This document shows, in pieces, positions 1,318 through 64,000 of a stretch of 64,000 bases of DNA. This DNA is from a virus. The notes beneath the pieces are model-generated. The model had not been told where the DNA came from. It ran no database searches and saw nothing but the letters and a program-made list of their open reading frames with translations. Position numbers and translations under genes: made by a program. The stretch is taken from UHGV virus genome UHGV-0211472; one strand, written 5' to 3'. The stretch's first letter is position 1. Each line of letters opens with the position of its first letter.

Positions 1318-4275
1318 ATGGCTCTCTACCCAATAAAATCTTTGGGTGCGGTTGGTGTTATTGCCGACCAATCTCCTACAGATCTGGCTCCTAATGCATT
1401 CACTAATGCAATCAATGCTCGGTTTGTAGAACAGCGTGTGTTTAAGACGGGGGGCTCTGCCCCTCTTTCTTACGTTGAGAGTGATAAAGGAATAAAACCA
1501 TTATCATTCACTTCAATGCCTTTTGACTACTTCAGTGCTAACAACAGTTTCTTGCTGGTAGGTACAGATAAGAGTATTTTTAGGCTAAATAATGAATCTA
1601 TGATTGATGTTAGTCGAAGAGTGGCCACAGTCACCAAAAAGGCTGTGTCTTACATTAAGATAAACCCTGTGCTAACAGAGATTGTCCCCAAAGAAACATC
1701 TGTCATTATGAGTTTTAATGAAAGCAAAGTTCTCGAGGTATCTCTTCTTCCAGAGGGTGTTACTACTCCATCTCTTGTGTGGGAAGTTAGCAATCCTTCT
1801 TATGGTTCAATACTAGTTGACCCTGACGATAACAAGAAGGCTACATTGAGCGTCTTGTCTAATGAGGGAAGCTTCACTGTCACCATCTCTAATGAAGAGG
1901 AATCTGTTACTGCCAGTATTTCCGTAAAAGTTGTTGATTCGGATTCTGGTATATTTCTTAACCGAGACTCTGTCCAACTCCGGAAAGGTGGGACAACTAC
2001 CCTTACAGCAACAACAAGTAAGACCCCTCTAACATGGACTTCTTCTAACCCAGCCATTATCTCTGTAGCGCCTAATGGTGACACTACTACCGCAGTGTTA
2101 ACCGCTCAAGGAGTAGGTAATGCACTGATAACTGTAAGCAACGGGTCTAAGACCTCAGAATGTTCTGTTAGCGTTATTAATCAGATTGACAGTATATCTT
2201 TGAGTCAAACAGACTTACAAATTAACCGTGGGACGTCTTATGTCTTATATGCTAGCTTGACCCCATCAAATGCTGCAAATCAGAAAATAACTTGGACCTC
2301 CTCTAATCCAAATGTTGCCACTGTTTCAGGAACTAGCCTTCAAGGAACTATCTCTGGACTCACAGCTGGGTTTACAGTTATAACAGCAACTACGGAAGAA
2401 GGCGAGAGGACAGCCACCTGTAATGTCAGGGTTGAGTTATCAAGCAGGACTCTTTTTGCTGCTGCATCGGCTCCTCCTGAAGAGTCTAGTTCTACGGATT
2501 CAGATATTGACACCTCAGCTATGTCAGAGGGGAACTCTTTTTATGACTACTCTATGGTTGATGGCGTTGAAGCCTATTCAATAAATGAAGTCATGTCTAG
2601 ATCAACTCAGCTTGAATCCTTAACTCTTGATATTGTGGATACTGAAATTGATGTTGGGGATGAGTTAGTAATAACTGCAACGGCAGCCCCTGAAGGGGAG
2701 TATCTTTATAGTTGGGTGGTAGACCAGCCGGGGTACATATCCTCTACTTCCACTACCGAGCCTTCCTTTACTTTAACTGCAATTAAGACTGGCAAAGTGA
2801 AGATAACCTGTACTGCTAGTCAAGTAGCTCGTAGAGATTATGAAGCGTTTGAAGAATACCCTTGGTATAATACCATCATCTCTAACTGTGCAGTGTTCAC
2901 TACTCACTATGAAACACCTCAAGTAAAAGAGTTTGCCTCTGAATACTTCACAGATCTTCCGGGGTGGGGAGAGCAGACGATAGTTGATGCTAATGGGAAC
3001 CCTTCTGTTGTAAAATATAACTGGAAGTGCGAAAGGATTCGTGCATTCAATAATCGCCTATTTGCTCTTAATATGCGAGAGTCTAATGCATCAGGGGTTA
3101 CTACTCACTACCCTCTTCGACTTCGCTGGTCTAACTATGCTAATGAGAACAAGGCACCTACCTTGTGGGATGACTTTGCTTATGACAGATATGTGACTTC
3201 AGATTTAGCAGCAAATGTTGTAGGTCAAACTGAGGCTCTAGAAAATGGATATGCCGGATACATAGATTTAGCTGACTCAAACGGTAGCTTAGTTGAGATT
3301 CTTCCTCTTAAGGATTATCTATTTATCTATACGGAGTTTGAGACTTACATTGGATCCCCAACTAACAACACATATCAACCTCTAATGTTCAAGAAGCTCT
3401 TCAATGATTCTGGAATCTTAGCACCTGAGTGTGTGGTTGAAGTTGAGAGTGGTCACTTTGTTGTTACTCAGAATGATGTTATTCTACACAATGGTGCAAC
3501 TAAGAAGTCTATTGCATCCAACAGGGTCAAGAATATGCTTATCAACGAGGTGTGTTTAGTAAACCCTTTAGCCACTAAGGTTCACCTACATCAAGATAAG
3601 AAGGAAGTGTGGATTCTCTATGTTGGACCCGGAGAACCCGCTGGGAGTTTTGCTTGTACAAAAGCTGCCGTATGGAACTACGAGTTTGATACATGGTCTT
3701 TCCGTACAATCCCATTCTCTCATTGCATTGGTTTGGTGGATCCTCCGACTTTAGAAAAAGGTCCTACTTGGGTTGATTTCCAAGAGTACACTTGGGATGA
3801 TCCCTCAATCAATGAACTTGTGTGGAGAAAGGATTCTACTAACTTCCGTCAGAGAGTCACTGTAGTAGGTTCTTGGATGAAAGGCTTTTACCAAGTAGAT
3901 GTAGGTCCTTATGACTACTCATATGATAGGTTGAATGACGTTGTTGTCAAGAAGCCATTAGAGATGAGATTGGAGAGAACTGGTATAGACTTTGACAATG
4001 TAACTAACGAGTGGAATCAGAAGCACATAAACAGGTTCCGCCCACAAGTAACAGGGTCAGGTACATACATATTCCAAGCGGGTGGTAGTCAGTATTCTGA
4101 CCAAGAAGATAGACACATTCATAGTGAAAAGTCTTATACGATCGGTGTTGACAGACATATAGGTGTCCGACTGAACCATCCGTATCTATTCTATAATGTT
4201 ATAGATAATGATGTTAACAGTAATGCAGCTATCAATGGACTAACTATTGAGTTTGCTGTTGGCGGGCGAAGATAA
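1318..4275 (+). CDS. Large structural protein with tandem Ig-like (Big_2-type) domains, putative tail fibre/spike
   Basis: 985 aa; repeated ~80 aa units of the form V..SP..V.L..G.T..L.AT..P..A..Q.ITWTSSNP..ATV; position in tail module. Confidence 0.45.
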   Translation: MALYPIKSLGAVGVIADQSPTDLAPNAFTNAINARFVEQRVFKTGGSAPLSYVESDKGIKPLSFTSMPFDYFSANNSFLLVGTDKSIFRLNNESMIDVSRRVATVTKKAVSYIKINPVLTEIVPKETSVIMSFNESKVLEVSLLPEGVTTPSLVWEVSNPSYGSILVDPDDNKKATLSVLSNEGSFTVTISNEEESVTASISVKVVDSDSGIFLNRDSVQLRKGGTTTLTATTSKTPLTWTSSNPAIISVAPNGDTTTAVLTAQGVGNALITVSNGSKTSECSVSVINQIDSISLSQTDLQINRGTSYVLYASLTPSNAANQKITWTSSNPNVATVSGTSLQGTISGLTAGFTVITATTEEGERTATCNVRVELSSRTLFAAASAPPEESSSTDSDIDTSAMSEGNSFYDYSMVDGVEAYSINEVMSRSTQLESLTLDIVDTEIDVGDELVITATAAPEGEYLYSWVVDQPGYISSTSTTEPSFTLTAIKTGKVKITCTASQVARRDYEAFEEYPWYNTIISNCAVFTTHYETPQVKEFASEYFTDLPGWGEQTIVDANGNPSVVKYNWKCERIRAFNNRLFALNMRESNASGVTTHYPLRLRWSNYANENKAPTLWDDFAYDRYVTSDLAANVVGQTEALENGYAGYIDLADSNGSLVEILPLKDYLFIYTEFETYIGSPTNNTYQPLMFKKLFNDSGILAPECVVEVESGHFVVTQNDVILHNGATKKSIASNRVKNMLINEVCLVNPLATKVHLHQDKKEVWILYVGPGEPAGSFACTKAAVWNYEFDTWSFRTIPFSHCIGLVDPPTLEKGPTWVDFQEYTWDDPSINELVWRKDSTNFRQRVTVVGSWMKGFYQVDVGPYDYSYDRLNDVVVKKPLEMRLERTGIDFDNVTNEWNQKHINRFRPQVTGSGTYIFQAGGSQYSDQEDRHIHSEKSYTIGVDRHIGVRLNHPYLFYNVIDNDVNSNAAINGLTIEFAVGGRR

Positions 4276-4280
4276 TAACA

Positions 4281-4310
4281 AGGGAGCTTCGTGCTCCCTT
4301 TTCTTGTTTA
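4281..4310 (+). terminator. Rho-independent terminator (intra-operon)
   Basis: AGGGAGC-ttcgt-GCTCCCT stem-loop followed by TTTCTTGTTT, directly after stop of 1318..4275. Confidence 0.4.
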
Positions 4311-4325
4311 TTATAAGGAGGGTCT

Positions 4326-5294
4326 ATGGGTGCTGGTGGCTTTCGTAAGAATACCGGAAGAAACAACACAACACAACCTTACAGTGTGGGCTTTCTAAAC
4401 ACCTCTGAGAGTGTAGAAACTAACAACGTTGCAATATATGATGAACTACAGAACATTAGCACTGCAACTAACCAAATGTTCCAAGCTATAGATGAAATCC
4501 ATGAGGAGATTGATGTTCGTATTAAAGCTCTTCATGCTATGAATTTACAATTTGATGAATTAGAGAATCGTGTTACGACAGAGATTGAGACTGCCATCGC
4601 AGATATTATAACACAAATGGGTAACCTATCCACCGATGATATTTGGGATAATTCAGTTAGTCCTCCTGTTAAGTTAGATTCAACTATGTCTGGTATTAAG
4701 ACTTCTATAGAAGGTAACACAGCATCTATACAGACTGTTGAAGGGATTGTTAATGATCAAGGACAAGAGATTGCCCTTATCCAATCTGACCTGACGAACG
4801 GAACAGGTAGTGCATCTCAGTATATGAAGCTCACTGAGTACGAGGCTACTTGGGGCGTTAACTCCACGGTGAATGGTAAGACAGCAGGGGTAAAACTGAC
4901 AAATAATGGTTCTACAAGCCAATTCCAAGTCACTGCTGATAAATTCCTTGTTTCCGATGGCACATCAGGGAGTACTCCTTTTAAAGTAGTTGGTGGAAGG
5001 GCAGTTATGGAGTTTGCTGATATTACTAACGTTGTGATAACAACTGCTCAGATAGCAACAGCTAGGATTCAGTGGGCACAAATTGATAACGTTAGCATAA
5101 CAAATGCACAGATTACAAGTTTGTCCGCTGATAAGATAACAGCTGGGTCAATGTCAGGAACTAATTGGCGTCTTACGGTTGGTGGTGATTTTGTTTTGGG
5201 TAGGACTTCTAGTTCTCAGCTTTGGATGAATGGTAGTCGTATCGACTTCTATGATGCAAGTGGTACTCTTCGTATTAGAATAGGGAGTTGGTAA
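4326..5294 (+). CDS. Tail fibre-like structural protein
   Basis: 322 aa; N-terminal coiled-coil-like region, C-terminal repeated ITxAQI/T motifs; tail module context. Confidence 0.35.
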   Translation: MGAGGFRKNTGRNNTTQPYSVGFLNTSESVETNNVAIYDELQNISTATNQMFQAIDEIHEEIDVRIKALHAMNLQFDELENRVTTEIETAIADIITQMGNLSTDDIWDNSVSPPVKLDSTMSGIKTSIEGNTASIQTVEGIVNDQGQEIALIQSDLTNGTGSASQYMKLTEYEATWGVNSTVNGKTAGVKLTNNGSTSQFQVTADKFLVSDGTSGSTPFKVVGGRAVMEFADITNVVITTAQIATARIQWAQIDNVSITNAQITSLSADKITAGSMSGTNWRLTVGGDFVLGRTSSSQLWMNGSRIDFYDASGTLRIRIGSW

Positions 5295-29563: not shown

Positions 29564-30121
29564 TTACATTTTCCAATATAATGAAGGTGGGTCGTAAGGG
29601 TCAAATCCTGTGAGTTCACACAAGTATTTATAAACCTTAACAGTTAAATTAACGTCCTGTTCACAATAAGTAAACATATCCTCAGTGAAAGCATCCCATG
29701 CTTCCTCTTGCTCACCGTAATCACCTTTAAGTTCCCCTAAGAACTCACCCCATTGCTTCAAGCCATGACCTCTTGGGCCATGTCTAGGGTCGCCTTTCGG
29801 GTACTCAGGACTGTCACCAATACGGTCAGGTTTAAGATATCGACTAAGACATAAAGTGTCAAAGACGTTAAAACGATAGTTAATCAGATTGGGATACATC
29901 TTCTTCAGAGCACAAAGGTCGAAGTCAATAATATTGTGACCCACGAGCACATCTGCTTCTGTAAGTTTATGAATCCCATCTTCAATTTGGTGAGGCCGAT
30001 AGCCCCACCTTTCACCAGTTTCAACATCGAAAACATAAATACACCATACTTTGGTTATATCATCGTATAGTGCATTACTCTCAATATCGAATGCAAACAC
30101 TTTCTTCTTTTTCTTTACCAC
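29564..30121 (-). CDS. 3'-5' proofreading exonuclease (T7 gp5 N-terminal domain-like), stand-alone
   Basis: Exo I FDIES, Exo [11 protein letters not shown], Exo III YCEQDV; colinear with T7 DNA polymerase residues ~1-190. Confidence 0.75.
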
Positions 30122-30660
30122 GGTGAAGCTCCATCTGCTTGGCTGACGAGAGAAGCTGCATCCTCTCCGTTAGTTAAAACGAATGGATTATCTTCATCAA
30201 CTTCAAAGTCTTCCCTTTCTACAAGTCTACCGGTTTCACTGATATACTTAGTATAACAGACACCTGTCTGACCGTAGTTACGTTCTTTCAGTAATCGAAT
30301 GACTGAGAGGTTCTTAGCTAAGCCGTCAGCTTGCTTGTCACGCTCAAAGCCAATGATACACTGACACCAACGCATAAGAGAACGAGAGCCAGTGAACTGT
30401 ACTTCACGTACCTGTCCACCTTCTTCATGAGGAGCACCACCTGCCGGAGCATTAAGGTGAGATAGCACGAAAGCGGTAAAGTCTAACTCTTTACACATAC
30501 CAGCAAGCTCGGAAGCGATCTTACTGATTTCAGTGTTAATCTCTGAAGGTGTTAAATGAGATACCAGAGCGGTAATGTTATCAAGGATGATAAATTTACA
30601 CTGGTTTTCAACTACCCAGAAACGAATACACTGTTTAATGTCTTCCCATTCGTTTTGCAA
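30115..30660 (-). CDS. Primase-helicase, 3' exon (helicase motifs H2-H4)
   Basis: [10 protein letters not shown] and QFTGSRS helicase motifs; no Walker A; frame is open upstream to a TGA with no ATG/GTG; true exon start likely at 30675 or 30690. Confidence 0.7.
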
Positions 30661-30910
30661 TAATTCAATGAAGGACGCAACTCCTTCACCCGTAGCATTA
30701 TATCTACTGCCCGTGGTTTCCCACGGGATTGGACTATATCATCACTCCTATTAAGGAGGCTAGGCGCTTCCACTAGCATTAGCTTCTAGTGTACTCCTTT
30801 CGGATAGTCTCTGCACTTTCTAGGATGTATCCTAGCTTAGCTCAGGATTGGCATATCTTTCGACTTAGCTTTCCCTGAATTCACCTAGTTTTACTTCGGC
30901 CATTGTGTTA
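30661..30910 (-). ncRNA. Group I self-splicing intron (subgroup IA-like) in primase-helicase gene
   Basis: Minus-strand P/Q/R/S cores GAATTCAGGGAAAGC, CAATCCTGAGC, GCAGAGACTATCC, GATATAGTCCAA; P9 CCCGTGG-GAAA-CCACGGG; guide GGCCGAAG pairs with exon end ACTTCGGT; 3' boundary uncertain (30676 or 30691). Confidence 0.6.
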
Positions 30911-49511: not shown

Positions 49512-50420
49512 TTATGCTGCCTGACGTGCTGCCATAATTTCAGCCGCTTTGCGCAGTACTTCTTCCTCTTCTGCTTTCGCAGCTTGCTCGGTACGAGTAG
49601 CAACCGTTGAAGAGATACGACCGCGCAGACTTTCTAACTTCTCCTGCATAGCTGCAACAGCCTTTTCCATTTCATCAGCGTATGAATCAAGTGATTCCAA
49701 TTCCTTGCTTGATGCGTTCATCAGGTAGTCATCAGAGATTGCTACCGTTGAGGCCGTGACTTTCTTGATGAGTGAATCAAAGGACTTTTTAACTTTGCCG
49801 ACTTCTTCGCTCAGGGCAATAGTGTTATCACTAGTTGCGCCGTTGCGCTCATCAGCTAGTAATTTAGCTTCAATACGGATTGCATTCAAGCGTTCAACCA
49901 AAGCGTAAATATCTTGGTTAAAATCTTCCTTGTTTTTCGCCGGGATTTGCAGGTGTGCCGCTACGTTGTCGTTGCAACCTTTGTAGAAGTTAGGATTATC
50001 AACTTCAATTTCACGACCTAAAGCAAAGTTTTCGAAAGCGTTTGACCAGCGAGCGCGGTTTTGTTCCATTTTGGTCTTAATCTGCGCTTCTTTCGCATCT
50101 TCTTTCGCTTTCGCTTCACCTTCCAGATTAATCCACTTTTTACGACCATTTGCCGCATCGGTGTTAAACTTGATAGGGGTTAAGAAAGTGATTGCGGTAG
50201 CAATAACATCCATATCGCGGAAGCGTTCAGTTAACAGGAAATCAACCGCCGTCTGTAATACGTCCAGTTTCTTACCGTTGCTGCGGAAGTGCTGCAAATG
50301 ACCTAACAGGAAGTTAGAAACATCTTGTTTGATCGCCGCGTTATTGCTACGAATGTTGTTAGCCAGAGCATTAAAACCGGATTCGTTAACCAGAGTAAAG
50401 ATTTTAGCCATGATATTCAC
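49512..50420 (-). CDS. Hypothetical early protein
   Basis: 302 aa; first ORF downstream of the 1.6 kb ORF-free region; Ala/Lys/Glu-rich helical C-terminus. Confidence 0.45.
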   Translation of the reverse strand: MNIMAKIFTLVNESGFNALANNIRSNNAAIKQDVSNFLLGHLQHFRSNGKKLDVLQTAVDFLLTERFRDMDVIATAITFLTPIKFNTDAANGRKKWINLEGEAKAKEDAKEAQIKTKMEQNRARWSNAFENFALGREIEVDNPNFYKGCNDNVAAHLQIPAKNKEDFNQDIYALVERLNAIRIEAKLLADERNGATSDNTIALSEEVGKVKKSFDSLIKKVTASTVAISDDYLMNASSKELESLDSYADEMEKAVAAMQEKLESLRGRISSTVATRTEQAAKAEEEEVLRKAAEIMAARQAA

Positions 50421-51227
50421 CTTTCAATTGTAAGGGCACTTTGCCCCGCTCTCTATGAGCTTGCTTAAGTCACTATTAACTTAACTCTAACCACTCACTA
50501 TTAAGTAGTTATAGGTAAGTGGAGCGGTCTTATCAGGAATTAACCTTGCCGCTCCCTTATCCGTGATGTTTCATCTGGTATCTTTAATTAGTCGCTATAA
50601 ACAAAGCCGACCTGATAGCGATGATCAATCATCACAATAAGGCAGTGCGTCCGACTCTAATTAGTTACGTTATTGTAACCGTCGGCAATATCGTCTACTT
50701 TGCTTTCGCTCTCGCCTATCCTTTTGTATCAACTCTCAATCGCTAGTCATCGCCCACTACGGGATACTATTGCGAAAGAGTCATTGACCGTCTAATATTC
50801 CGACGTTTTATATCTTTCAGCGAGTTTACTACATAAACCGACTATGTACTTTCATCATGAGATGAATCTCAAGCCGTTCACATTGTAAACGTTCACACTA
50901 AACCTTATTGTTAAATAGCAATTTGCCACTTTTTAACCACTCCCCGCCGCTCTCAATTGAGCGTTAATTCGTCGGACTTATCTACCCTGATTAACTTCTT
51001 TCACCGTAGCGCCTTGTTAGCGATGACCGCCGCTACCCTTAACCGTGGGCGATTAGCTTAAGTCGATGCGTGCACTCGATGAATCTGCTTATCAGTGGTG
51101 ATGTTTCCAGTAAGGGATTGTAAGGCTGTTTTCTCTGATAGTTTAGAGAGTCTTACACCGTTTTATCTGGTATGCTTTCCGATGGTTATTATCATCAAGC
51201 ATATTCAACCGATATAGGAGAACGTTT

Positions 51228-51610
51228 AAATTGTTAAAGAGCGGTAAATCTATCAGCGCGCTTTCTCACGCTATGCAACTGTTAGCCGTTGTTACGCTAT
51301 TCACTGAAGCGGTGATTTGCTTAAGTGATGCTCATTATGAATCATGTTGTTTTAGCTGTCAACCACTTTTTTAATCTTTTTCGTCGTTCCCGTTATTGGG
51401 AGGATATACCAATCAGCTTTATTCGATTGGAGATTAAGCGGTAAGGCTTAACTTATGATTCATATTTTTAAAGAGCGGTTACTACATTCACAGCTTAACA
51501 CATCGTGTTAGCTTGTCAACTCTTTTTATCATCTTCTTTGAATTCCTTTCCCTTATCTCGCGTGAATCTCTGCGAAAGGGCAAGATGATAAGTTTTTAAA
51601 GAGCAATTGC
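51228..51610. repeat. Three dispersed copies of TTTAAAGAGC(G/A) with nearby TTGTCAA and TTACTACAT motifs
   Basis: TTTAAAGAGC at ~51231, ~51468, ~51594; TTACTACAT at ~50826, ~51478, ~51641; TTGTCAA at ~51357, ~51514, ~51661. Confidence 0.35.
51334..51362 (-). promoter_or_regulatory. Candidate sigma70-type promoter (minus strand)
   Basis: Minus strand TTGACA - 17 nt - CATAAT. Confidence 0.3.
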
Positions 51611-51919
51611 AAGTTTCCTTGCTTTGTTTCTGATACCCATCTTACTACATTTGGGCATCTTGTCAATCTTTTTATTTCTTATCGATTACCTGTTTTTCGT
51701 ACGACTTATCAGGTTGTCTACTTGGCACTGCTTAACCGATGAATAGATAATAGTGGAAGTGAGGGAGGAAAGCAACACTTATTTTGATTATTTTCAGGGA
51801 AGGAAGATATAAAAGAACGCGCACGCGAATAACATACTAAAACAGGCTTGTAAAGCACTAGTTGACGCTCTCAGACGCATCACAACGAGCTAAAAGGAAG
51901 TAAGGCATACAATCACCTT

Positions 51920-51950
51920 ATAAAAGAGAAAAGCCTCACTAGGAGGCTTA
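51920..51950 (-). terminator. Rho-independent terminator
   Basis: Minus strand AAGCCTC-ctagt-GAGGCTT followed by TTCTCTTTTAT, downstream of 52025..52390 stop. Confidence 0.4.
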
Positions 51951-52024
51951 CAGGAAGGATTAGAGAATCAGATAGATTATGACCATAGGCATGACTACGG
52001 CACAATACAGGAGAAAGATTAAGC

Positions 52025-52390
52025 CTATGGATTTACACATTGACCGTTGCCGGATTTTATTTCGTTCATAGACTCGTCAAAGAGCGTCAACGACGAGCGC
52101 AACAAGTGATCGACCGTAATTTGTTTGCCAGTGGTTTCGTTAGTCATATAGATAGACTTGTCATAGACTACAACACTCTCAAAATCTTCTACATGTAAAA
52201 TAATAACTTTAGGTGACTGTTTACCAGTTTCATAATCTTCTATCAAATAGGTGCACTGTAGACCTTCGATAGTATCAGGTGTGAACGTTGCAGCCTTCAC
52301 ACTACCCATAGACGATAGCAGGACACCTAACAGGAGAACAACAAGGAAGAAGCCTACAACCGTTTTAACGACGAATTTAATAAACCACAT
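52025..52390 (-). CDS. Signal-peptide / membrane-anchored protein
   Basis: N-terminal hydrophobic segment VVGFFLVVLLLGVLLSSMGSVKAA. Confidence 0.4.
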   Translation of the reverse strand: MWFIKFVVKTVVGFFLVVLLLGVLLSSMGSVKAATFTPDTIEGLQCTYLIEDYETGKQSPKVIILHVEDFESVVVYDKSIYMTNETTGKQITVDHLLRSSLTLFDESMNEIKSGNGQCVNP

Positions 52391-56654: not shown

Positions 56655-58196
56655 ATGTCATTAGATAAACAAATTTATGAAGCTCTAACTGGTAACAACC
56701 TTAGTGTAGATGAAAAGAAAGCACTATTGAATATGTTGAAAGAGCGTGACCAATGGAGGAAGTATAATAGGATTTTGTCTTTCAAGGCGTATGACTTCCA
56801 AAAGAAATTTTATGCAGCAGGATTGAAGCATCGCTTTAGATTCTTGTGTGCAGCGAACCGTGTTGGTAAATCTTATAGTGAGGCATACGAGTTTGCTTGT
56901 CATGTCACAGGTCGCTACCCAACTTGGTGGACAGGATATAAATTTAAAAGACCTATCTTAGCATGGGCAGTTGGTATTACAGGGGATTCCACAAGGAAAG
57001 TATTGCAAAAGGAATTGTTTGGTACACCTATCGGAAAGGATACAAATTTATTAGGGACAGGTGTCATTCCTCGTGATGCTATCGTCATTGATACGATAGA
57101 ACGAGATGGTAACAAACTTCAAATCGTACAAATCAAACATCAAAATGAGAGAGGAGAGTTTGACGGTTTAAGTACATTAGAATTCCGTTCAACCCAACAG
57201 GGTGAACATACATTGATGGGTGCAACAGTTGACTACATTTGGTTAGACGAAGAAGATCCATACGAGTCTATGGCTATATTCGCACAGTGTGTCACACGTA
57301 CACTCACAACTAAAGGTCTAGTTACAATTACAGCTACACCAGAGAACGGTTTAACTGAACTGGTAGATAAATTTATGAAAGGTGAAGGAGATGAGAACAC
57401 GGGTTCTCTATATTTCCAGAATGCTTCTTGGTGGGATGCTCATGCAGACCTAGGTGGACATATCACTGACCAAGATATAAAAGATATGACTGAAGGTATT
57501 CCAGCGTGGCAATTAGAGATGCGTTCAAAAGGTATGCCATTGTTAGGAAGTGGTTTGATTTATGATGTATCGGATGACACAATTAAATGTGAACCATTCG
57601 AAATTCCTGATACGTGGAAACGTGTCTGTGCAATTGATATTGGTATTGATCACCCAACTGCTGCTGTTTGGACAGCTTACGACGCAAACACGGATACTAT
57701 CTATGTTTACGACTCATATAAAGAAGGTGGCTTTACTCCAGTGTATCATGCTCCAGCTATTAATGGTCGTGGTCAGTGGATTCCTGTCATCCTACCGCAT
57801 GACGCGGACAATATTGAGAAAGGTAGTGGTTCATCTGTTGCTCAATTCTATAAGAATGCAGGAGTTAATGTACAGAGTGATACCTTCTACAACAAAATTG
57901 GAATGGATGGTAAAAAGAACTTCTTTGTAGAACCGGGAATCACAGATATCCGAGAAAGAATGATGAGTGGACGCTTTAAAATCTTTAACACAGCCGCTAA
58001 CGCTAAGCTATTCGAAGAGAAAGCTAGATATCACCGTAAGGTTGGTAAGATTATTAAAGAACATGATGACTTAATGGATGCAATGCGCTATTCAGCGTGC
58101 TCTGTTACACATCGTGGTCGCTCTAAGCATGATGTTAGCTACGGAAGCGCTTCTTTGTATGAGGCAAACGTAAGCAGATGGAATCAGAGTTACTAA
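56655..58196 (+). CDS. Terminase large subunit
   Basis: 513 aa; N-terminal ATPase with deviant Walker A LCAANRVGKS and Walker B-like DYIWLDEED; acidic C-terminal nuclease-like motifs; directly upstream of portal. Confidence 0.8.
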   Translation: MSLDKQIYEALTGNNLSVDEKKALLNMLKERDQWRKYNRILSFKAYDFQKKFYAAGLKHRFRFLCAANRVGKSYSEAYEFACHVTGRYPTWWTGYKFKRPILAWAVGITGDSTRKVLQKELFGTPIGKDTNLLGTGVIPRDAIVIDTIERDGNKLQIVQIKHQNERGEFDGLSTLEFRSTQQGEHTLMGATVDYIWLDEEDPYESMAIFAQCVTRTLTTKGLVTITATPENGLTELVDKFMKGEGDENTGSLYFQNASWWDAHADLGGHITDQDIKDMTEGIPAWQLEMRSKGMPLLGSGLIYDVSDDTIKCEPFEIPDTWKRVCAIDIGIDHPTAAVWTAYDANTDTIYVYDSYKEGGFTPVYHAPAINGRGQWIPVILPHDADNIEKGSGSSVAQFYKNAGVNVQSDTFYNKIGMDGKKNFFVEPGITDIRERMMSGRFKIFNTAANAKLFEEKARYHRKVGKIIKEHDDLMDAMRYSACSVTHRGRSKHDVSYGSASLYEANVSRWNQSY

Positions 58197-58257
58197 AGTA
58201 AGGGGGAGGTTTATCCTCCCTTCTTTTATTTAAGCTATCAACCGAGGGAGAGAATCG

Positions 58258-60501
58258 ATGGCTAAGCAAAAATATAGTGAAGAGGTGTTGGACGAGTTAC
58301 GTGTTGACCTTCAACGTCGTTTTAATTATGCTCAAGGCTACGTAGACACAGCTGTTAAGGGCTATGCTCGTGAAGCTTGGGAATATTTCTATGGTAACTT
58401 ACCTGCACCAGTAACTGCTGGCAGCTCTAGTTGGGTAGATCGTACTGTTTGGGAATCTGTTAACGGTACATTGCAAGATATTATTAACGTATTCTGTTCT
58501 GGTGACGAAGCGGTTACTTTCGTAGCTGACAACCAACAGGATTCTGATGCTGCTGATGTAGCAACTAAACTAGTTAACCAAATTCTTCTGCGTGATAATC
58601 CGGGATATAATATTATCTCTTCTGCTGCACAAGAATGTCTGGTTACTCGTAACTCTTTTATCAAATATTATTGGGATGAGCAAACTTCTACTCAAACTGA
58701 AGAGGCTGAAGGTGTACCACCGGAAGCATTGGCTGCATATGTTCAGGGATTAGAAGCTGGTGGACTCAAGAATCTGGAAATCTTCACTGAAGAAAATGAA
58801 GATGGTACAGTAGATGTTAAAGTTACTTACGAACAAACTGTTAAACGTGTGAAAGTTGAATATGTTCCTTCAGAGCAAATCTTTGTTGATGAACATGCTA
58901 CCTCTTTTGCAGATGCACAATACTTCTGTCATCGTGTACGTCGTTCTAAAGAAGATCTGGTTGCTATGGGCTTCCCTAAAGATGAGATTGAAGCATTCAA
59001 CGACTGGACAGATACGATGGATACCACTCAATCTACAGTTGCTTGGTCTCGTACTGACTGGCGTCAGGATATTGATGCTGATATTGGCACAGATACCGAA
59101 GATATTGCTTCTATGGTTTGGGTTTATGAGCACTACATTCGTACAGGTGTTCTAGATAAGAATAAAGAGTCTAAACTCTATCAGGTTATTCAAGCTGGTG
59201 AGCATATCCTTCACACTGAAGAAGTAACTCACATTCCGTTTGTAACCTTCTGCCCATATCCTATTCCGGGTTCCTTCTATGGTCAATCGGTCTATGACAT
59301 TACGAAAGATATTCAAGATTTACGTACCGCGTTAGTTCGTGGTTATATCGATAACGTCAACAATGCTAACTATGGTCGATACAAAGCTCTTGTTGGTGCA
59401 TATGATCGTCGCTCTCTGCTTGATAACCGTCCCGGTGGAGTGGTTGAAATGGAACGTCAGGACGCTATTGACCTGTTCCCATACCATAACCTACCTCAAG
59501 GTATTGATGGCCTCCTAGGTATGTCTGAGGAGCTTAAAGAGACACGTACAGGTGTAACCAAACTAGGTATGGGTATCAACCCTGATGTGTTTAAGAATGA
59601 TAACGCTTATGCAACCGTAGGCTTGATGATGAATGCTGCACAGAACCGTCTCCGTATGGTATGTCGTAACATTGCTCACAATGGTATGGTTGAATTGATG
59701 CGTGGTATTTACAGCCTTATCAGAGAAAATGGTGAAGTTCCTATCGAGGTACAAACCCCTCGTGGTATGGTTCAGGTTAATCCGAAACAATTACCAGCTC
59801 GTCACAATCTTCAAGTTGTTGTAGCTATCTCCCCTAATGAGAAAGCAGAACGTGCACAGAAACTGATTAGCTTGAAACAGCTGATTGCAGCAGATGCACA
59901 GTTAGCACCTCTCTTTGGTTTGGAGCAAGACCGTTACATGACTGCACAGATCTTTGAGTTGATGGGTATTAAAGATACACATAAATACCTTCTGCCTCTG
60001 GAACAATATCAGCCTCCAGAACCTTCTCCGATGGAAATCCTCCAGCTCGAGATGACTAAAGCACAGGTTGAGAACGTACAGGCTTCTTCTCAGAAGATGA
60101 TTGCTGATGCATTCGACCAACGTGAACGTACTACATTCGAACAGCAGAAAGCTGCGGATGAATTAAGTCTGCGTCAGGAAGAGTTGCAGTTCAAGCAAGA
60201 AAATGCAGCAGATGCAATGACTCTGGAAAACCGTAAAGAAGATAACAATGCTACTCTGGAACAAGCTAAGCACAAGTTAGCTCTTATGCAACAGCAGGTC
60301 CGTCAGTATGAATCTGTACTAAAAGAGTTGCAGATGGTTATGTCTCATCAGGTTGACCAAGAGAAGCTTAATGAACAATCACGCATTCAAAACAAGACTT
60401 TGGAACTCCAAAAGAAAGAAGCTAATGTAACTAAGAAAGAGCAACAAACTTCTCTCAAAGATTCACGGATTCAAGGCAAACGTCTTGGAAGTAAAAAGTA
60501 A
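58258..60501 (+). CDS. Portal protein
   Basis: 747 aa directly after terminase; long C-terminal coiled-coil region. Confidence 0.65.
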   Translation: MAKQKYSEEVLDELRVDLQRRFNYAQGYVDTAVKGYAREAWEYFYGNLPAPVTAGSSSWVDRTVWESVNGTLQDIINVFCSGDEAVTFVADNQQDSDAADVATKLVNQILLRDNPGYNIISSAAQECLVTRNSFIKYYWDEQTSTQTEEAEGVPPEALAAYVQGLEAGGLKNLEIFTEENEDGTVDVKVTYEQTVKRVKVEYVPSEQIFVDEHATSFADAQYFCHRVRRSKEDLVAMGFPKDEIEAFNDWTDTMDTTQSTVAWSRTDWRQDIDADIGTDTEDIASMVWVYEHYIRTGVLDKNKESKLYQVIQAGEHILHTEEVTHIPFVTFCPYPIPGSFYGQSVYDITKDIQDLRTALVRGYIDNVNNANYGRYKALVGAYDRRSLLDNRPGGVVEMERQDAIDLFPYHNLPQGIDGLLGMSEELKETRTGVTKLGMGINPDVFKNDNAYATVGLMMNAAQNRLRMVCRNIAHNGMVELMRGIYSLIRENGEVPIEVQTPRGMVQVNPKQLPARHNLQVVVAISPNEKAERAQKLISLKQLIAADAQLAPLFGLEQDRYMTAQIFELMGIKDTHKYLLPLEQYQPPEPSPMEILQLEMTKAQVENVQASSQKMIADAFDQRERTTFEQQKAADELSLRQEELQFKQENAADAMTLENRKEDNNATLEQAKHKLALMQQQVRQYESVLKELQMVMSHQVDQEKLNEQSRIQNKTLELQKKEANVTKKEQQTSLKDSRIQGKRLGSKK

Positions 60502-60510
60502 GGACGTCGA

Positions 60511-60747
60511 ATGAACATTAGGCATCAATTCAATAAAGAGCACGCCGCCGCTTTGGCGGCTCTCAATCTTAACGGCAGTCTTGACGCAGCATTAGAGGCA
60601 TTGAAAGAAAGACTCATGACCGAGATAGTTCAAACTGAACCTCATGAGAATAAGAAACGCGAAGATTGTTATCAAAAGTATAAAATGGTGGGTAGCTTAA
60701 AAGAGGTCATAAAAGCTGCTATCAATAGTGCAGGAGATGTTTCATAA
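60511..60747 (+). CDS. Hypothetical protein
   Basis: 78 aa ORF between portal and scaffold. Confidence 0.35.
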   Translation: MNIRHQFNKEHAAALAALNLNGSLDAALEALKERLMTEIVQTEPHENKKREDCYQKYKMVGSLKEVIKAAINSAGDVS

Positions 60748-61823
60748 TGCCACAAGATAATTATATTGACCCGAACGATTTTAAATCTTTCCTCCAACTG
60801 GATGACCTGAAAGGTTCTTTCAAAGAAGAACTCGGTCGATTAGAATCTGAACAAGAGCCAGAAGTGGACATTGACGATGAGTTCCCGGAAAAAGACGGTG
60901 ACGATTTCGACTTTGATACCGACCTTCTCGGTGAAAGCGATGAGCTTAAGTTCGAAGATGAAGATGGTTGGGAAGATCATGATGAGGAAGGCGAAGTCGA
61001 AGAAGATGAAGATGAATCCTCTGAAGCAGAAGAGCAAGAGGAAGAAGATTCAAGTGATGCAGGGTATGAAGATGATTCTGCTGACGGTGAAGGTGAAGTC
61101 TTTGATGTAGACTACGAAACCGTTATCACCCTTCCTGATGGACGTGAGATGACTATTGAAGAACTTTCTAATGGCTATCTTACTGGTGCTGATATGACAG
61201 AACGAGAATCAACTCTTCAGCGTCATATGGAAGCATTTGAGGAACGTGTAGTAGGTTTGAAGGATGTATTAGAATTAGCGTCTTTAGAAGCAGACCGAGT
61301 AATTGAAGATTACAATGGTTTTGATTGGGACAAGCTTGCAGTAGAAGATCCTCAAGCATATGTTGAAAACAAACGTTTCCTAGAGAAGTACACAGCTCGT
61401 CGTAACCAGCTTGAACAGGCTCAAGTCCGTATTAAGCAGGAAGCAGCAGCTAAAGAGCAGGAAGCTTTCCAAGCCAAGAGTGTTGAGTGCGTTAATATTC
61501 TGAAACGTGAGATTCCAAATTGGGATGAAAACTTATATCAAAACTTAATGCAATATGCAATTGACTTAGGTGCTACTGAAGAAGAAATATTGAAGGAAAA
61601 CCGTCCGTCTATTTTCCTAGCTCTCCACAAAGCATACCAATTTGATAAAGGTAAGCAGCAGGTGATGGCTAAGATTAAACGTCCCGGTGCTCCACGCAAG
61701 GTTGTGAAGTCTGATGCTGCAAAGTCTCGTACTTCCAATAAGCCCGACAACGCTAAGGTTGCCAAGGCATTCGCAGAGGGTCGCGTTAGTCACGAAGACG
61801 CATTCAAATTCCTCGTAGATTAA
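60747..61823 (+). CDS. Scaffolding protein
   Basis: 358 aa, highly acidic Glu/Asp-rich N-terminus and helical C-terminus; between portal and capsid genes. Confidence 0.5.
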   Translation: MPQDNYIDPNDFKSFLQLDDLKGSFKEELGRLESEQEPEVDIDDEFPEKDGDDFDFDTDLLGESDELKFEDEDGWEDHDEEGEVEEDEDESSEAEEQEEEDSSDAGYEDDSADGEGEVFDVDYETVITLPDGREMTIEELSNGYLTGADMTERESTLQRHMEAFEERVVGLKDVLELASLEADRVIEDYNGFDWDKLAVEDPQAYVENKRFLEKYTARRNQLEQAQVRIKQEAAAKEQEAFQAKSVECVNILKREIPNWDENLYQNLMQYAIDLGATEEEILKENRPSIFLALHKAYQFDKGKQQVMAKIKRPGAPRKVVKSDAAKSRTSNKPDNAKVAKAFAEGRVSHEDAFKFLVD

Positions 61824-61863
61824 TCGACAAATTAATTATTAATAGTATAGGAGCTAATATAAC

Positions 61864-62925
61864 ATGGCTAGTCCAACTTTATTTGTATCGTATGACCAGA
61901 ATGGTAAAAAACTTTCTTTTGCTAACTGGATTTCTGTTCTGTCCCCTCAGGATACCCCGTTCGTATCTATGACCGGTAAAGAGTCTATCAACCAGACTAT
62001 CTTTAGCTGGCAGACCGATGCACTGGCAAGCGTTGACGGTAATAACGCACACGTCGAAGGCTCTCGTGCTGAAGACGGCGAAATGAAACCGACTGTTATC
62101 AAATCTAACGTTACTCAGATTCTGCGTAAGGTTGTTCGTGTTTCTGATACTGCTAACACCACCGCTAACTACGGTCGTGGTCGTGAACTGATGTATCAGC
62201 TGGAGAAGAAAGGTAAAGAGATCAAGCGTGACCTCGAGAAAATCCTTCTGTCCGGTCAGGCTCGTACCGACGTTCTGGCTGACCAGTACCTGACTAACTC
62301 TGCAACTGATCCTGCTGTTGTTGGTCTGAATGACACCCATACAGCTCGTAAGACTGGTGCATTCCAGTTCCTGTGTGCTCACGGTGGTCTGGCTGGTGGT
62401 GTTGTTGACAAGACCAAGAATGGTCCTGCTGACCCGGATACTGGTGCAATCACTGTTAAAGTTGCACAGAATGCTTCTAACCCGACCACTAACATTGGTT
62501 TCGACGAAGCTGATATCTTTGATATGACTCTGCAACTGTATACCGCTGGTTCTGAAGCAGATATCATCATGATTAACCCGGCTCATGCTAAGATCTTCGC
62601 TGGTCTGCAAGAAAATACTCAGGGTTCACGTAAGCGTATCTTTGAGAACACCAAGCAGTTCATCTACGAAGTTAACAGCATCACTGACCCGCTGGGCCAG
62701 AGCTACAAAATCATCGTTAACCGTTGGATGCCTACCGATGCAGTTTACTTCTTCCGTAGCGCTGACTGGACTCAGATGGTTCTGCGTGCTCCGAAACGTA
62801 CTGAACTGGCTAAAGATGGTTCTTATGAGAAATGGATGATTGAAATGGAAGTTGGTCTGCGTCACCGCAACCCGTATGCTTCCGGCGTTCTGTTCACTGC
62901 TGCGGGAAAGGTAGCGGCGGCGTAA
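61864..62925 (+). CDS. Major capsid protein (frame-0 product)
   Basis: 353 aa; position after scaffold; strongly biased codon choice (cgt, ctg, ggt, act) suggesting high expression. Confidence 0.65.
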   Translation: MASPTLFVSYDQNGKKLSFANWISVLSPQDTPFVSMTGKESINQTIFSWQTDALASVDGNNAHVEGSRAEDGEMKPTVIKSNVTQILRKVVRVSDTANTTANYGRGRELMYQLEKKGKEIKRDLEKILLSGQARTDVLADQYLTNSATDPAVVGLNDTHTARKTGAFQFLCAHGGLAGGVVDKTKNGPADPDTGAITVKVAQNASNPTTNIGFDEADIFDMTLQLYTAGSEADIIMINPAHAKIFAGLQENTQGSRKRIFENTKQFIYEVNSITDPLGQSYKIIVNRWMPTDAVYFFRSADWTQMVLRAPKRTELAKDGSYEKWMIEMEVGLRHRNPYASGVLFTAAGKVAAA

Positions 62926-64000
62926 CAGTAGATTCCGTAACTGTTAGTCCTTCGTCGGTTGCAAGCCTTCCGACGGGGGCTACTCAGCAGTTTACAGCTA
63001 CAGCAGAAATGAGTGACGGCTCCACAAGCACAACTGGATTTAATTGGTCCGTTGAAGGCGGTGGGGCTATTTCTGTTTCTGGGCTATACACTGCACCGAG
63101 TGCGTCGCAAGAAACCCCAGCAATTATTACGGCAACGAAGTCATCCAAGAAAGGGACGGCTACTGTTAATTCTATCTACGAACCAGCGACTATTGTATCA
63201 AAAGGTCCTATTACTGGTAAGATTGGTGGCAGCACTACAGCATTCACCACAATGTTTACAGCAACCAACTCAGCATTCTCTGATTATGAGTTTGAAATCA
63301 CTCCTCCGTCAGCAGGTTCTTTTAACCTGTCGGGTGTATTTGGTTTAGATGACAATGCATCTGGAACAGTGACTGTAAAAGCAACGCATAAAACTCAAAC
63401 CTCAGTTACTGCAACAGGGACAATCAGTGGTGTAATTCCTAAAGCTACTATCACAGGTAAGTCTCTTACCGGTAAGGTTGGTGGTGATGTGATTCCTTTT
63501 ACTGACATGTTTACTAGTAACAAACCAGCATCGGAATTTACTTACGCACTGACTCCTGATGGTGAAGTTGGTTCAATCAACACTACTACTGGTGCACTGA
63601 CTTTAGCACTGGCTCCTACAGATGAACTTATGAGTGTTAAAGCAACCCATAAAACACAAACTTCTGTAACAGCTACTGCTACAATTACAGCAACACCGAA
63701 GTTGACAGGTCTTGTCCTTTCTTCTGTGACTAACACCACGGTTACTGGAAGCCCTGCGGTTCCGGCTGAATCTGATACAATTACTATCACTGATTCAGGT
63801 GTTGCAGGTGTTGCTCGTGTAGATGGGGTTCCTCAAGGAGCTTTAACTGGAGCTTTGGCCTATGATGTAGAAGGTACAGATTCTTCATTGATGACAGTGG
63901 ATTTAACCAGCAATGTGTTAACTATCACCCTGTCAGCACCGATTACCAGTGAAGATACAAAAATTACCATCCGAACTAATCCGGGTTCTGATGTTTTCCG
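62904..64000 (+). CDS. Capsid protein C-terminal extension with Ig-like (Big_2-type) domains, reached by -1 frameshift; partial at window end
   Basis: Slippery heptamer G_GGA_AAG at 62904..62910; the -1 frame is open from 62844 to 64000 with no start codon before 63008 and encodes repeated VTV..S...L..G.T..FTAT units. Confidence 0.55.

What the first reader, a model, noticed from the sequence alone, without database searches (positions are those of the whole stretch)
62904..64000. Canonical -1 frameshift site at the capsid gene end fuses the capsid protein to an Ig-like domain array
The capsid ORF ends ...GCG GGA AAG GTA GCG GCG GCG TAA. The heptamer G_GGA_AAG at 62904..62910 is a classic X_XXY_YYZ slippery site of the efficient XXXAAAG class. 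The -1 frame is open from 62844 to the window end (385 codons), contains no ATG/GTG/TTG before 63008, and encodes Ig-like repeats (VTVSPSSVASLPTGATQQFTATAE...) with capsid-like codon bias. Without frameshifting, the first ~30 residues of the first Ig domain could not be translated. A possible downstream stem CCTTCGTCGG/CCGACGGGGG lies ~35 nt 3' of the site. This parallels T7 10A/10B, but the extension here is at least 365 aa.
Basis: partly seen in the sequence, partly recalled or inferred. Interest (0 to 1): 0.75.

Follow-up and report, generated by a model that had tools for sequence, protein, structure and literature searches.

The report
Known capsid–Ig frameshift of Kuraviruses
The window comes from a phiEco32-like (Kuravirus) E. 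coli phage, and the site is the -1 ribosomal frameshift signal GGGAAAG already described for this genus, which makes a minority of capsid subunits carry a C-terminal string of Ig-like domains; the reading is correct but not new.

Summary
G_GGA_AAG lies at 62904-62910 in the slip-prone register, six codons before the capsid stop. The -1 frame is open from 62844 to the window end, and its first start codon is ATG 63009, inside the first Ig (Big_2) domain. The extension models as four Ig-like beta-sandwich domains.

The interpretation (-1 programmed frameshift fusing capsid protein to an Ig array) is supported. The heptamer is invariant in about 30 related loci, no start codon is conserved in the -1 frame, and the linker and first domain are conserved as protein.

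It is already known. The window is a Kuravirus whose capsid protein is near-identical to SU10 gp9. The same GGGAAAG fusion is described for SU10 (2014), where it is attributed to phiEco32 (2008), and for Privateer (2021) and YF01 (2023). Phages Paul and YF01 annotate it as a joined CDS in GenBank.

Two sub-claims need correcting. The extension has genome-average codon usage, not capsid-like bias. The downstream stem exists and covaries, but it begins 26-39 nt past the slip site, too far for a classical stimulator.

By collinearity with relatives, the window cuts the ORF about 9 codons short (predicted 721-aa, ~76-kDa fusion).

Seen in passing: a group I intron in the primase/helicase gene.

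The parts
61864..62925 (+). Major capsid protein gene (353 aa, 38.7 kDa), zero frame, stop TAA at 62923-62925
   Evidence: ORF list. Pfam PF17236 SU10_MCP, E 3e-77. PDB 7z45_A, SU10 major head protein, E 2e-234 over residues 1-352. Molecular weight.
62904..62910 (+). Slippery heptamer G_GGA_AAG. tRNA-Gly re-pairs from GGA to GGG and tRNA-Lys from AAG to AAA. Junction peptide ...FTAAGK|GSGGVTVDSV
   Evidence: Sequence. Invariant in all Kuravirus-like loci examined. Contains the only GGA codon of the gene. G_GG.A_AA.G is among the three most efficient motifs in E. coli (PMC4066793).
62910..64000 (+). -1 frame extension: 363 codons inside the window, cut by the window end. About 9 more codons (...RTYTVKSGA) and a stop are predicted, giving a 372-aa extension and a 721-aa, ~75.7-kDa fusion protein
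   Evidence: Translation. 93% identical to P0003, which continues 9 residues beyond the window end. Collinear with EP335 (372 aa after the shift) and, allowing for the 519-nt segment that the window lacks, with L016. Molecular weight.
62928..63158 (+). Ig-like domain 1 (Big_2), starting right after a GSGG linker
   Evidence: Pfam PF02368 Big_2, 25.2 bits against a cut-off of 22.8, residues 7-83. AF2 strands E7-E86, pLDDT about 90.
63189..63437 (+). Ig-like domain 2 (residues 94-176 after the shift)
   Evidence: AF2 model, pLDDT 95-97. Foldseek matches to tandem Ig and cadherin arrays. PHROG 13745. No Pfam family reaches its cut-off.
63450..63695 (+). Ig-like domain 3 (residues 181-262), a sequence-related repeat of domain 2 (both end ...VKATHKTQTSVTAT)
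   Evidence: Translation. AF2 model.
63708..63977 (+). Beta-sandwich domain 4 (residues 267-356), modelled with lower confidence
   Evidence: AF2 model, pLDDT 55-89 per 10-residue block.
62937..62995 (+). Compensatory changes are seen at three pairs. Function unknown
   Evidence: RNAalifold consensus. Pair counts: 99% of cells paired. Pair 62957/62971 occurs as G-C in 8, U-A in 5 and A-U in 2 sequences, with none broken. 0 of 500 shuffles reach the observed covariation score. Against this, folding z-score is only -1.8, there is no clear conservation peak, and it starts 23-26 nt after the heptamer.
62897..62920 (+). Small hairpin CUGCUGC / GCGGCGG with the heptamer in its loop, noted for SU10 by Mirzaei et al. 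2014
   Evidence: -11 kcal/mol, z -1.5. Essentially invariant, so there is no covariation evidence. It cannot be folded while a ribosome sits on the heptamer.
63009..63011 (+). First ATG of the -1 frame, inside Ig domain 1. Automatic gene callers in several related records start a separate 'Ig domain protein' at this codon
   Evidence: Annotations of relatives. Database proteins start MSDGSTS.... The codon is AAA (Lys) or CTA (Leu) in other relatives. No Shine-Dalgarno sequence lies upstream.

Best explanation
This is the -1 programmed ribosomal frameshift site of the major capsid gene of a phiEco32-like (Kuravirus) podophage.

Most ribosomes read GCG GGA AAG GTA GCG GCG GCG TAA and release the 353-aa capsid protein. 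A minority slip back one base on G_GGA_AAG: P-site tRNA-Gly re-pairs from GGA to GGG and A-site tRNA-Lys from AAG to AAA. These ribosomes continue in the -1 frame through a GSGG linker into four tandem Ig-like domains. The product is a roughly 721-aa capsid protein with the array attached to its C-terminus. This long form presumably co-assembles into the prolate head as a minor species and displays the Ig array on the outside.

Shown here:
- the motif, its register and its invariance;
- an open and conserved -1 coding frame;
- the absence of a conserved start codon;
- the Ig folds.

Taken from the literature on close relatives: detection of the long capsid species in virions.

Inferred: the slip frequency, which is probably low because no structure lies at the canonical 5-9 nt spacing; the surface display; and the weak adhesion role proposed for phage Ig domains.
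For: - Motif, register and frames.
- Only functional-looking copy of the heptamer in the window, and off-frame open runs are at most 42 codons elsewhere.
- Heptamer invariant in about 30 loci, while the extension after the shift varies from 169 to 545 aa.
- No conserved start codon, and conserved peptide upstream of every candidate start.
- Rare codons (GGA, GCG) confined to the slip and overlap region of a codon-optimised gene.
- The switch to genome-average codon usage exactly at the site fits a low-abundance product.
- Big_2 domain begins 6 residues after the junction.
- Four beta-sandwich domains.
- Capsid protein almost identical to SU10 gp9.
- Papers: SU10, GGGAAAG fusion 'as in phiEco32' (PMC4281155). 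Privateer, two capsid bands and the minor capsid protein detected in whole virions by mass spectrometry (PMC7881722). YF01, 892-aa isoform (PMC9965538).
- General rule that phage Ig-like domains are often appended by frameshifting: PMC5009743.
- G_GG.A_AA.G among the three best E. coli motifs: PMC4066793.
Against: - There is no direct protein evidence for this particular phage.
- No stimulatory structure lies at the canonical spacing. Folding of the 40 nt after the site gives z -0.2. Without a stimulator the best V_VVA_AAG motifs gave only about 0.3% slippage in a reporter (PMC4066793), which would be a handful of copies per roughly 715-subunit head.
- The cryo-EM structure of SU10 shows no density for an Ig protein or long isoform (PMC9509320). 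The YF01 authors attribute this to a premature -1 frame stop unique to SU10, so the extension is dispensable in at least one relative.
- The primary phiEco32 paper (Savalia 2008) could not be read. Its result is cited second-hand.
Confidence: 0.9

Rival explanations
1. The Ig-domain protein is a separate gene, translated independently from ATG 63009 (or another internal start) and binding the capsid as a free decoration protein. Many GenBank records annotate it this way.
For: Separate CDS annotations in phiEco32, EP335, Bas89, HC-25922, SR02 and Ptacy1479. All database gene calls of window-type phages start at MSDGSTS. The SU10 cryo-EM paper discusses gp10 as a possible loosely bound minor capsid protein.
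Against: - ATG 63009 lies inside the Big_2 domain (residues 7-83) and has no Shine-Dalgarno sequence.
- The codon is not conserved: Lys in phiEco32 and ECBP2, Leu in L027 and L040.
- The alternative starts used by annotators differ between clades, and Proteus phage J3S has none in the first 50 codons.
- The 33 codons upstream of the ATG are conserved as protein, and the frame is open back through the heptamer in every relative.
- Low-level internal initiation in addition to frameshifting is not excluded.
Confidence: 0.05
2. The extension is a decaying remnant that is no longer expressed in this phage, as in SU10 where the -1 frame closes after 39 nt.
For: SU10 lacks the long isoform. Extension length is very variable among relatives.
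Against: - The frame is open for at least 363 codons in the window and 169-545 codons in about 30 relatives. Off-frame open runs elsewhere in the window never exceed 42 codons.
- The domains model with high confidence (pLDDT 86).
- The sequence is 93% identical at protein level to a relative over the whole array.
Confidence: 0.03
3. The frame change is made at the RNA or DNA level rather than by the ribosome, through transcriptional slippage or an assembly indel.
For: None specific. The site contains short G3 and A3 runs.
Against: - Runs of 3 are far below the 7-9 identical bases that RNA polymerase slippage needs (established knowledge, reviewed in PMC5009743).
- The same two-frame arrangement appears in about 30 independently sequenced genomes and metagenome contigs, which excludes a sequencing artefact.
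Confidence: 0.01

Closest known systems
phiEco32 gp11/gp12, SU10 CDS9/CDS10, Paul CPT_Paul_009/010 and YF01 gp8: the Kuravirus major capsid protein -1 frameshift
   Same: - Same genus-level gene: capsid protein 92-99% identical.
- Same heptamer GGGAAAG at the same codon, same G-rich linker, and the same first Big_2 domain.
- Already annotated as a joined CDS in Paul and YF01 and described in PMC4281155, PMC9965538 and PMC7881722.
   Different: Only the length and make-up of the Ig array differ. There are four domains (predicted 372 aa) here, against 178 aa in phiEco32 and 545 aa in Paul. Relative to L016 the window lacks a 519-nt (173-codon) segment, and the Paul alignment shows the same break. 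In SU10 the -1 frame is closed after 39 nt.
Proteus phage Privateer / J3S capsid frameshift (Grimontviridae)
   Same: GGGAAAG lies at the very end of a homologous capsid gene (57% identity), followed by a 169-aa -1 extension. The Privateer paper reports two capsid bands on SDS-PAGE and the minor capsid protein in whole virions by mass spectrometry.
   Different: The heptamer abuts the stop codon (GGA AAG TAA). The extension is shorter and has a different sequence.
T7 gene 10A/10B and T3 gene 10 capsid frameshifts
   Same: A -1 slip near the end of the major capsid gene gives a minor, longer capsid protein that co-assembles, at about 10% according to PMC9965538. In T3 the extension is Ig-like (PMC5009743).
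   Different: The capsid protein lineage and slip sites are unrelated. The T7 extension is about 50 aa and not Ig-like (own knowledge). Here the extension is about as long as the capsid protein itself.
Ig-like domains appended to phage structural proteins by frameshifting (Fraser et al. 2006, reviewed by Atkins et al. 2016)
   Same: A C-terminal Big_2-type domain is added to a structural protein through programmed frameshifting. Weak surface adhesion is the proposed role.
   Different: None in kind. This is one instance of that class.
Salmonella phage 7-11 tandem capsid paralogues
   Same: A homologous capsid protein (56% identity) comes in a short form (312 aa) and a long form (585 aa) with a C-terminal extension.
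   Different: The long form is a second gene with the extension in frame, preceded by an annotated terminator. There is no frameshift. It looks like an alternative genetic route to the same short and long pair.

Membership tests
-1 programmed ribosomal frameshift signal (bacterial X_XXY_YYZ type) | Heptamer X_XXY_YYZ in the correct register of the upstream (zero) frame | tested here: met
   G_GGA_AAG at 62904-62910, and the only in-frame heptamer in the capsid ORF.
-1 programmed ribosomal frameshift signal (bacterial X_XXY_YYZ type) | -1 frame open across the site and encoding a real protein that lacks its own start | tested here: met
   385 open codons. Big_2 and PHROG hits. AF2 Ig domains. 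First start codon is inside domain 1, and no start is conserved among relatives.
-1 programmed ribosomal frameshift signal (bacterial X_XXY_YYZ type) | Conservation of the motif among relatives despite synonymous alternatives | tested here: met
   Invariant in about 30 loci. It uses the only GGA codon of a codon-optimised gene.
-1 programmed ribosomal frameshift signal (bacterial X_XXY_YYZ type) | Stimulatory element: a hairpin or pseudoknot 5-9 nt downstream, or a Shine-Dalgarno-like sequence about 10 nt upstream. This is common but not obligatory. | tested here: not met
   - No SD-like sequence upstream.
- The nearest stem (TAACAGT / ACTGTTA) starts 12 nt downstream and has z -0.2.
- The covarying hairpin starts 23-26 nt downstream.
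- No Rfam match.
-1 programmed ribosomal frameshift signal (bacterial X_XXY_YYZ type) | Trans-frame protein product actually made | not testable with these tools
   Only literature on relatives: Privateer mass spectrometry and gel; phiEco32 and SU10 as cited there and. The primary phiEco32 paper is not held.
Kuravirus major capsid protein / Ig fusion | Upstream gene is the SU10/phiEco32-type HK97-fold capsid protein in the terminase - portal - scaffold - capsid module | tested here: met
   PF17236. PDB 7z45, E 2e-234. Gene order matches Paul and phiEco32.
Kuravirus major capsid protein / Ig fusion | Same slip site and homologous junction and first domain | tested here: met
   The alignment of 15 distinct sequences is 90% identical per column on average, with an identical heptamer. 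The junction peptide GK-G(S)GG-VTVDSVTVSP is shared.
Bacterial Ig-like domain group 2 (Pfam Big_2) | Score at or above Pfam's gathering threshold | tested here: met
   Domain 1 scores 25.2 bits against 22.8. Domains 2-4 match no Pfam family above cut-off and are Ig-like only at the fold level.

The most novel reading that the evidence does not exclude
The long hairpin at 62937-62995 keeps its pairing through compensatory changes. At pair 62957/62971, a synonymous Ser third position covaries with the second position of a Pro/Glu/Gln/Leu codon, giving G-C, U-A and A-U. This hairpin could be an unconventional distal element that sets the capsid to capsid-Ig ratio, for example by stalling the leading ribosome so that the following ribosome pauses on the heptamer. 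Alternatively it could suppress internal initiation at the downstream ATG. Together with the cassette-like gain and loss of Ig domains (169-545 aa on nearly identical capsid proteins), this would make the site a tunable display system rather than a plain slip site.
Probability: 0.12. Interest if true: 0.35.

Novelty: already known. Interest (0 to 1): 0.1.

Why it matters
The finding has limited scientific news value. It re-discovers from raw sequence a recoding event already published for this phage genus.

Its practical value is for annotation. Of the related GenBank records inspected, most call a truncated, stand-alone 'Ig domain protein' starting at an internal codon. Only Paul and YF01 annotate the joined CDS. 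The capsid gene of this phage should be annotated as two products: 353 aa, and about 721 aa by -1 slippage at GGGAAAG.

The variable Ig array on an otherwise near-identical capsid could be relevant to adhesion, for example to mucus or host surfaces, and to phage display engineering. That idea is also already in the literature.

Tried and rejected
- Pfam on the whole 363-aa extension returned nothing, even at E 10. Splitting it into domains recovered Big_2 for domain 1, so the first null was a filter effect.
- A classical downstream stimulator was not found. I folded 40, 66, 88 and 90 nt after the site and the heptamer-enclosing hairpin. All z-scores fell between -0.2 and -1.8, none significant. 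Rfam found nothing in 62500-63400.
- There is no terminator between the capsid stop and the Ig array. The scan found nothing convincing, so transcriptional uncoupling was rejected.
- A nucleotide conservation profile across the first Ig domain shows only mildly higher identity over the hairpin (0.83-0.93, against 0.80-0.91 over the next ~100 nt) and no clear peak.
- I tried to recover the missing 3' end of the ORF from metagenome contigs. L015 and L016 are 97% identical over the first 1552 nt of the query but are not the source. The end was inferred from P0003, L016 and EP335.
- Savalia et al. 2008 could not be opened by PubMed id or PMC id.
- The 'capsid-like codon bias' claim was tested and rejected.
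- Four more divergent contigs fetched to add power to the covariation test gave only the three pair types already seen.
Full report
**What the window is**

The 2.1 kb from 61864 to the window end matches 126 phage records. The best matches are Escherichia phages of the genus Kuravirus and its subfamily Gordonclarkvirinae: Paul at 96%, phiEco32 at 95% and EP335 at 86%. The gene order terminase, portal, small ORF, scaffold, capsid at 56655-62925 is that of phiEco32 and Paul. The 353-aa product of 61864..62925 matches Pfam SU10_MCP at E 3e-77. It is essentially identical to the solved SU10 major head protein, PDB 7z45, at E 2e-234.

**Check of the observation**

- The capsid ORF ends GCT GCG GGA AAG GTA GCG GCG GCG TAA.
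- GGGAAAG is at 62904-62910 in the register G_GGA_AAG and is the only in-frame X_XXY_YYZ heptamer of the gene.
- The -1 frame is open from 62844 to 64000, 385 codons. Its first ATG/GTG/TTG is ATG 63009.
- The bare heptamer is not unusual, with 8 copies on the two strands of the window. Only this copy sits in the slip register of a long gene followed by a long -1 frame.
- Off-frame open runs in seven + strand genes of the window average 6.8 codons and never exceed 42.
- The single GGA codon and all four GCG codons of this otherwise strongly codon-optimised gene lie at 62902-62922. This points to selection on the nucleotide sequence of the slip and overlap region.

**What the extension is**

- Read after the slip, the product is ...FTAAGK-GSGG-VTVDSVTVSP....
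- Residues 7-83 after the junction reach the Pfam Big_2 threshold, 25.2 bits against 22.8.
- The whole extension matches PHROG 13745, 'Ig domain containing protein', at E 7e-66.
- An AlphaFold2 model built on 27 homologues (mean pLDDT 86.4) shows four all-beta domains: residues 1-90, 94-176, 181-262 and 267-356.
- Foldseek matches these to Leptospira LigA Big_2 domains, titin Ig domains, cadherin ectodomains and the Ig-like nozzle domains of SU10.
- The closest database protein, P0003 (93% identical), runs 9 residues past the window end. Collinearity with EP335, and with metagenome contig L016 once its extra 519-nt segment is allowed for, gives the same end point.
- The full extension is therefore predicted to be 372 aa, and the fusion protein 721 aa and about 75.7 kDa.
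The capsid gene uses CTG for 19 of 23 Leu and CGT for 15 of 16 Arg. The extension has genome-average usage, with a score of -0.25 against +0.26 for the capsid gene. This fits a rarely translated region.

**Comparative test of the frameshift reading**

- In every Kuravirus-like locus fetched, about 30 in all, the heptamer is identical and at the same codon. The loci came from GenBank phages, IMG/VR, metagenomes and Logan assemblies.
- The -1 ORF beyond the heptamer varies from 178 to 545 aa.
- No start codon is conserved in the -1 frame. It is ATG at codon 36 in the window type, where the equivalent codon is Lys or Leu in others. It is GTG at codon 11 in phiEco32, where the window has GTA. It is GTG at codon 18 or 19 in some, and nothing before codon 49 in ECBP2.
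- The peptide upstream of all these candidate starts is conserved, including a TCC to AGT serine switch.
- Proteus phage J3S, whose capsid protein is 57% identical, has GCG GGA AAG TAA followed by a 169-aa -1 extension with no start codon in its first 50 codons.
- Aeromonas-type relatives have G_GUA_AAG, which re-pairs at the A site only, with a -1 ORF of 88-190 codons. In three of them a GC-rich hairpin lies 6 nt downstream.
- Salmonella phage 7-11 encodes a short capsid paralogue and a long in-frame one instead.
- Together these results support a conserved need for a short and a long capsid protein, met in this lineage by -1 slippage.

**Mechanism**

- G_GG.A_AA.G is one of the three most efficient -1 motifs in E. 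coli. The tRNA-Lys(UUU) re-pairs from AAG to AAA. Without a stimulator these motifs gave only about 0.3% slippage in reporters (PMC4066793).
- I found no stimulator at the canonical spacing. There is no upstream Shine-Dalgarno-like sequence. A 7-bp stem starts 12 nt downstream but is no better than shuffled sequence.
- The hairpin that encloses the heptamer, described for SU10 (PMC4281155), cannot be folded when a ribosome occupies the site.
It is the top of a longer hairpin, 62937-62995, which stays 99% paired across 15 distinct sequences. Three pairs show compensatory changes. One links a synonymous Ser third position to a Pro/Glu/Gln/Leu second position, as G-C in 8, U-A in 5 and A-U in 2 sequences, with none broken.
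- Against a stimulatory role, the hairpin starts 23-26 nt after the heptamer at variable spacing, its folding z-score is only -1.8, and the region shows no marked conservation peak. I regard it as probably a real RNA structure of unknown role, not an established frameshift stimulator.
- The slip frequency in this phage therefore remains unknown. If it is low, a head of about 715 subunits (SU10 count, PMC9509320) would carry only a few Ig arrays.

**What is already known**

- YF01 also has a joined CDS. Its paper describes the 353-aa and 892-aa isoforms, the heptamer, the size variation among group members, and the SU10 exception (PMC9965538).
- The SU10 genome paper identified GGGAAAG and the fusion with the Ig-like CDS 'as in phage phiEco32' (PMC4281155).
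- The Privateer paper reports two capsid bands, detects the minor capsid protein in whole virions by mass spectrometry, and states that the frameshift product was observed in phiEco32 and SU10 (PMC7881722).
- Reviews treat Ig-like domains appended by frameshifting as a recurrent phage theme (PMC5009743).
- The primary phiEco32 paper could not be opened.
- The SU10 cryo-EM study saw no Ig density (PMC9509320). The YF01 authors explain this by a premature -1 stop specific to SU10.

**Verdict**

The phenomenon is already known for this exact genus and heptamer.

What is specific to this window is a four-domain version of the array, lacking a 173-codon segment present in L016 and Paul. In addition, the downstream hairpin covaries, and I did not find this described in the papers read here.

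Interest is low. The main practical use is correct annotation, because several related database records call a truncated stand-alone Ig gene.

**Side observations**

- A group I intron (Rfam RF00028, 86 bits) interrupts the primase/helicase gene at about 30911-30658 on the - strand. It is absent from 97 of 98 matching phage records.
- A 1.6-kb ORF-poor stretch at 50420-52025 carries three near-consensus sigma-70 promoters in tandem.

Noticed in passing
window 30920..30658, - strand (Rfam hit 30920..30710): A group I intron (RF00028, 86.3 bits against a gathering score of 50, E 1e-20) interrupts the DNA primase/helicase gene. Relative to the uninterrupted YF01 gene the window has a ~254-nt insertion, leaving exon ORFs 32158..~30912 and ~30657..30115. 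Of 98 matching phage records, 97 lack it. Only phage VTCCBPA_211 has it, there with an extra ~500-nt insert carrying a 177-aa ORF (possibly a homing endonuclease, not tested), and its gene is annotated as three separate CDS. No paper in the held library links group I introns to phiEco32-like phages.
   Followed up: partly
window 50420..52025, - strand: A 1.6-kb stretch has no ORF of 50 aa or more. It holds three near-consensus sigma-70 promoters in tandem (TTGACA-type -35 boxes at about 51665, 51520 and 51362), each followed by a CGCTCTTTAA box. About 0.9 kb of apparently non-coding leader follows before the next gene. This is probably the early promoter cluster of the phage.
   Followed up: no
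L035 (Salmonella phage 7-11) 1482-4258; L037 (GAP52) 2492-4629; L013 5033-5945: More distant relatives encode two tandem capsid paralogues instead of a frameshift. Phage 7-11 has a 312-aa gene, an annotated terminator, then a 585-aa gene with an in-frame C-terminal extension. GAP52 has 318-aa and 366-aa genes. This is an alternative genetic route to a short and long capsid pair.
   Followed up: partly
L009-L012 near 4905-4960; L036 3412; L014 4897: Aeromonas-type relatives carry G_GUA_AAG (A-site re-pairing only) before the capsid stop, with a -1 ORF of 88-190 codons. L009-L011 also have a GC-rich 6-bp hairpin exactly 6 nt downstream. L014 has A_AAA_AAG but only a 44-codon -1 frame. The slip motif and its helper differ between lineages.
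   Followed up: partly
L014 (IMGVR_UViG_3300033688_000038), whole 6.3-kb locus: blastn of the capsid gene hits at least seven separate places within 4.4 kb of this 125-kb viral contig. This suggests several tandem capsid-like gene copies or fragments upstream of the main capsid gene.
   Followed up: no
window 63355..63415 relative to L016 4052-4510 and Paul (L001) 4552-5025: The window's Ig array lacks a 519-nt (173-codon, about two domains) segment present in L016, and the Paul alignment shows the same break. The breakpoint lies in the repeated ...VKATHKTQTSVTAT... motif, suggesting domain gain or loss by recombination between repeats. Extension lengths among near-identical capsid genes are 178, 179, 180, 217, 264, 271, 370, 372, 437, 443, 455, 457, 459, 542, 543 and 545 aa.
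   Followed up: partly
GenBank records EU330206, NC_070979, PQ850613, OQ555404, OQ870566, PQ863256 (loci L002, L003, L029-L032): These records annotate the Ig array as a stand-alone CDS starting at a non-conserved internal ATG or GTG. This drops up to 33 conserved codons and the fusion itself. Among the Kuravirus-like records inspected, only Paul and YF01 annotate the joined product.
   Followed up: yes
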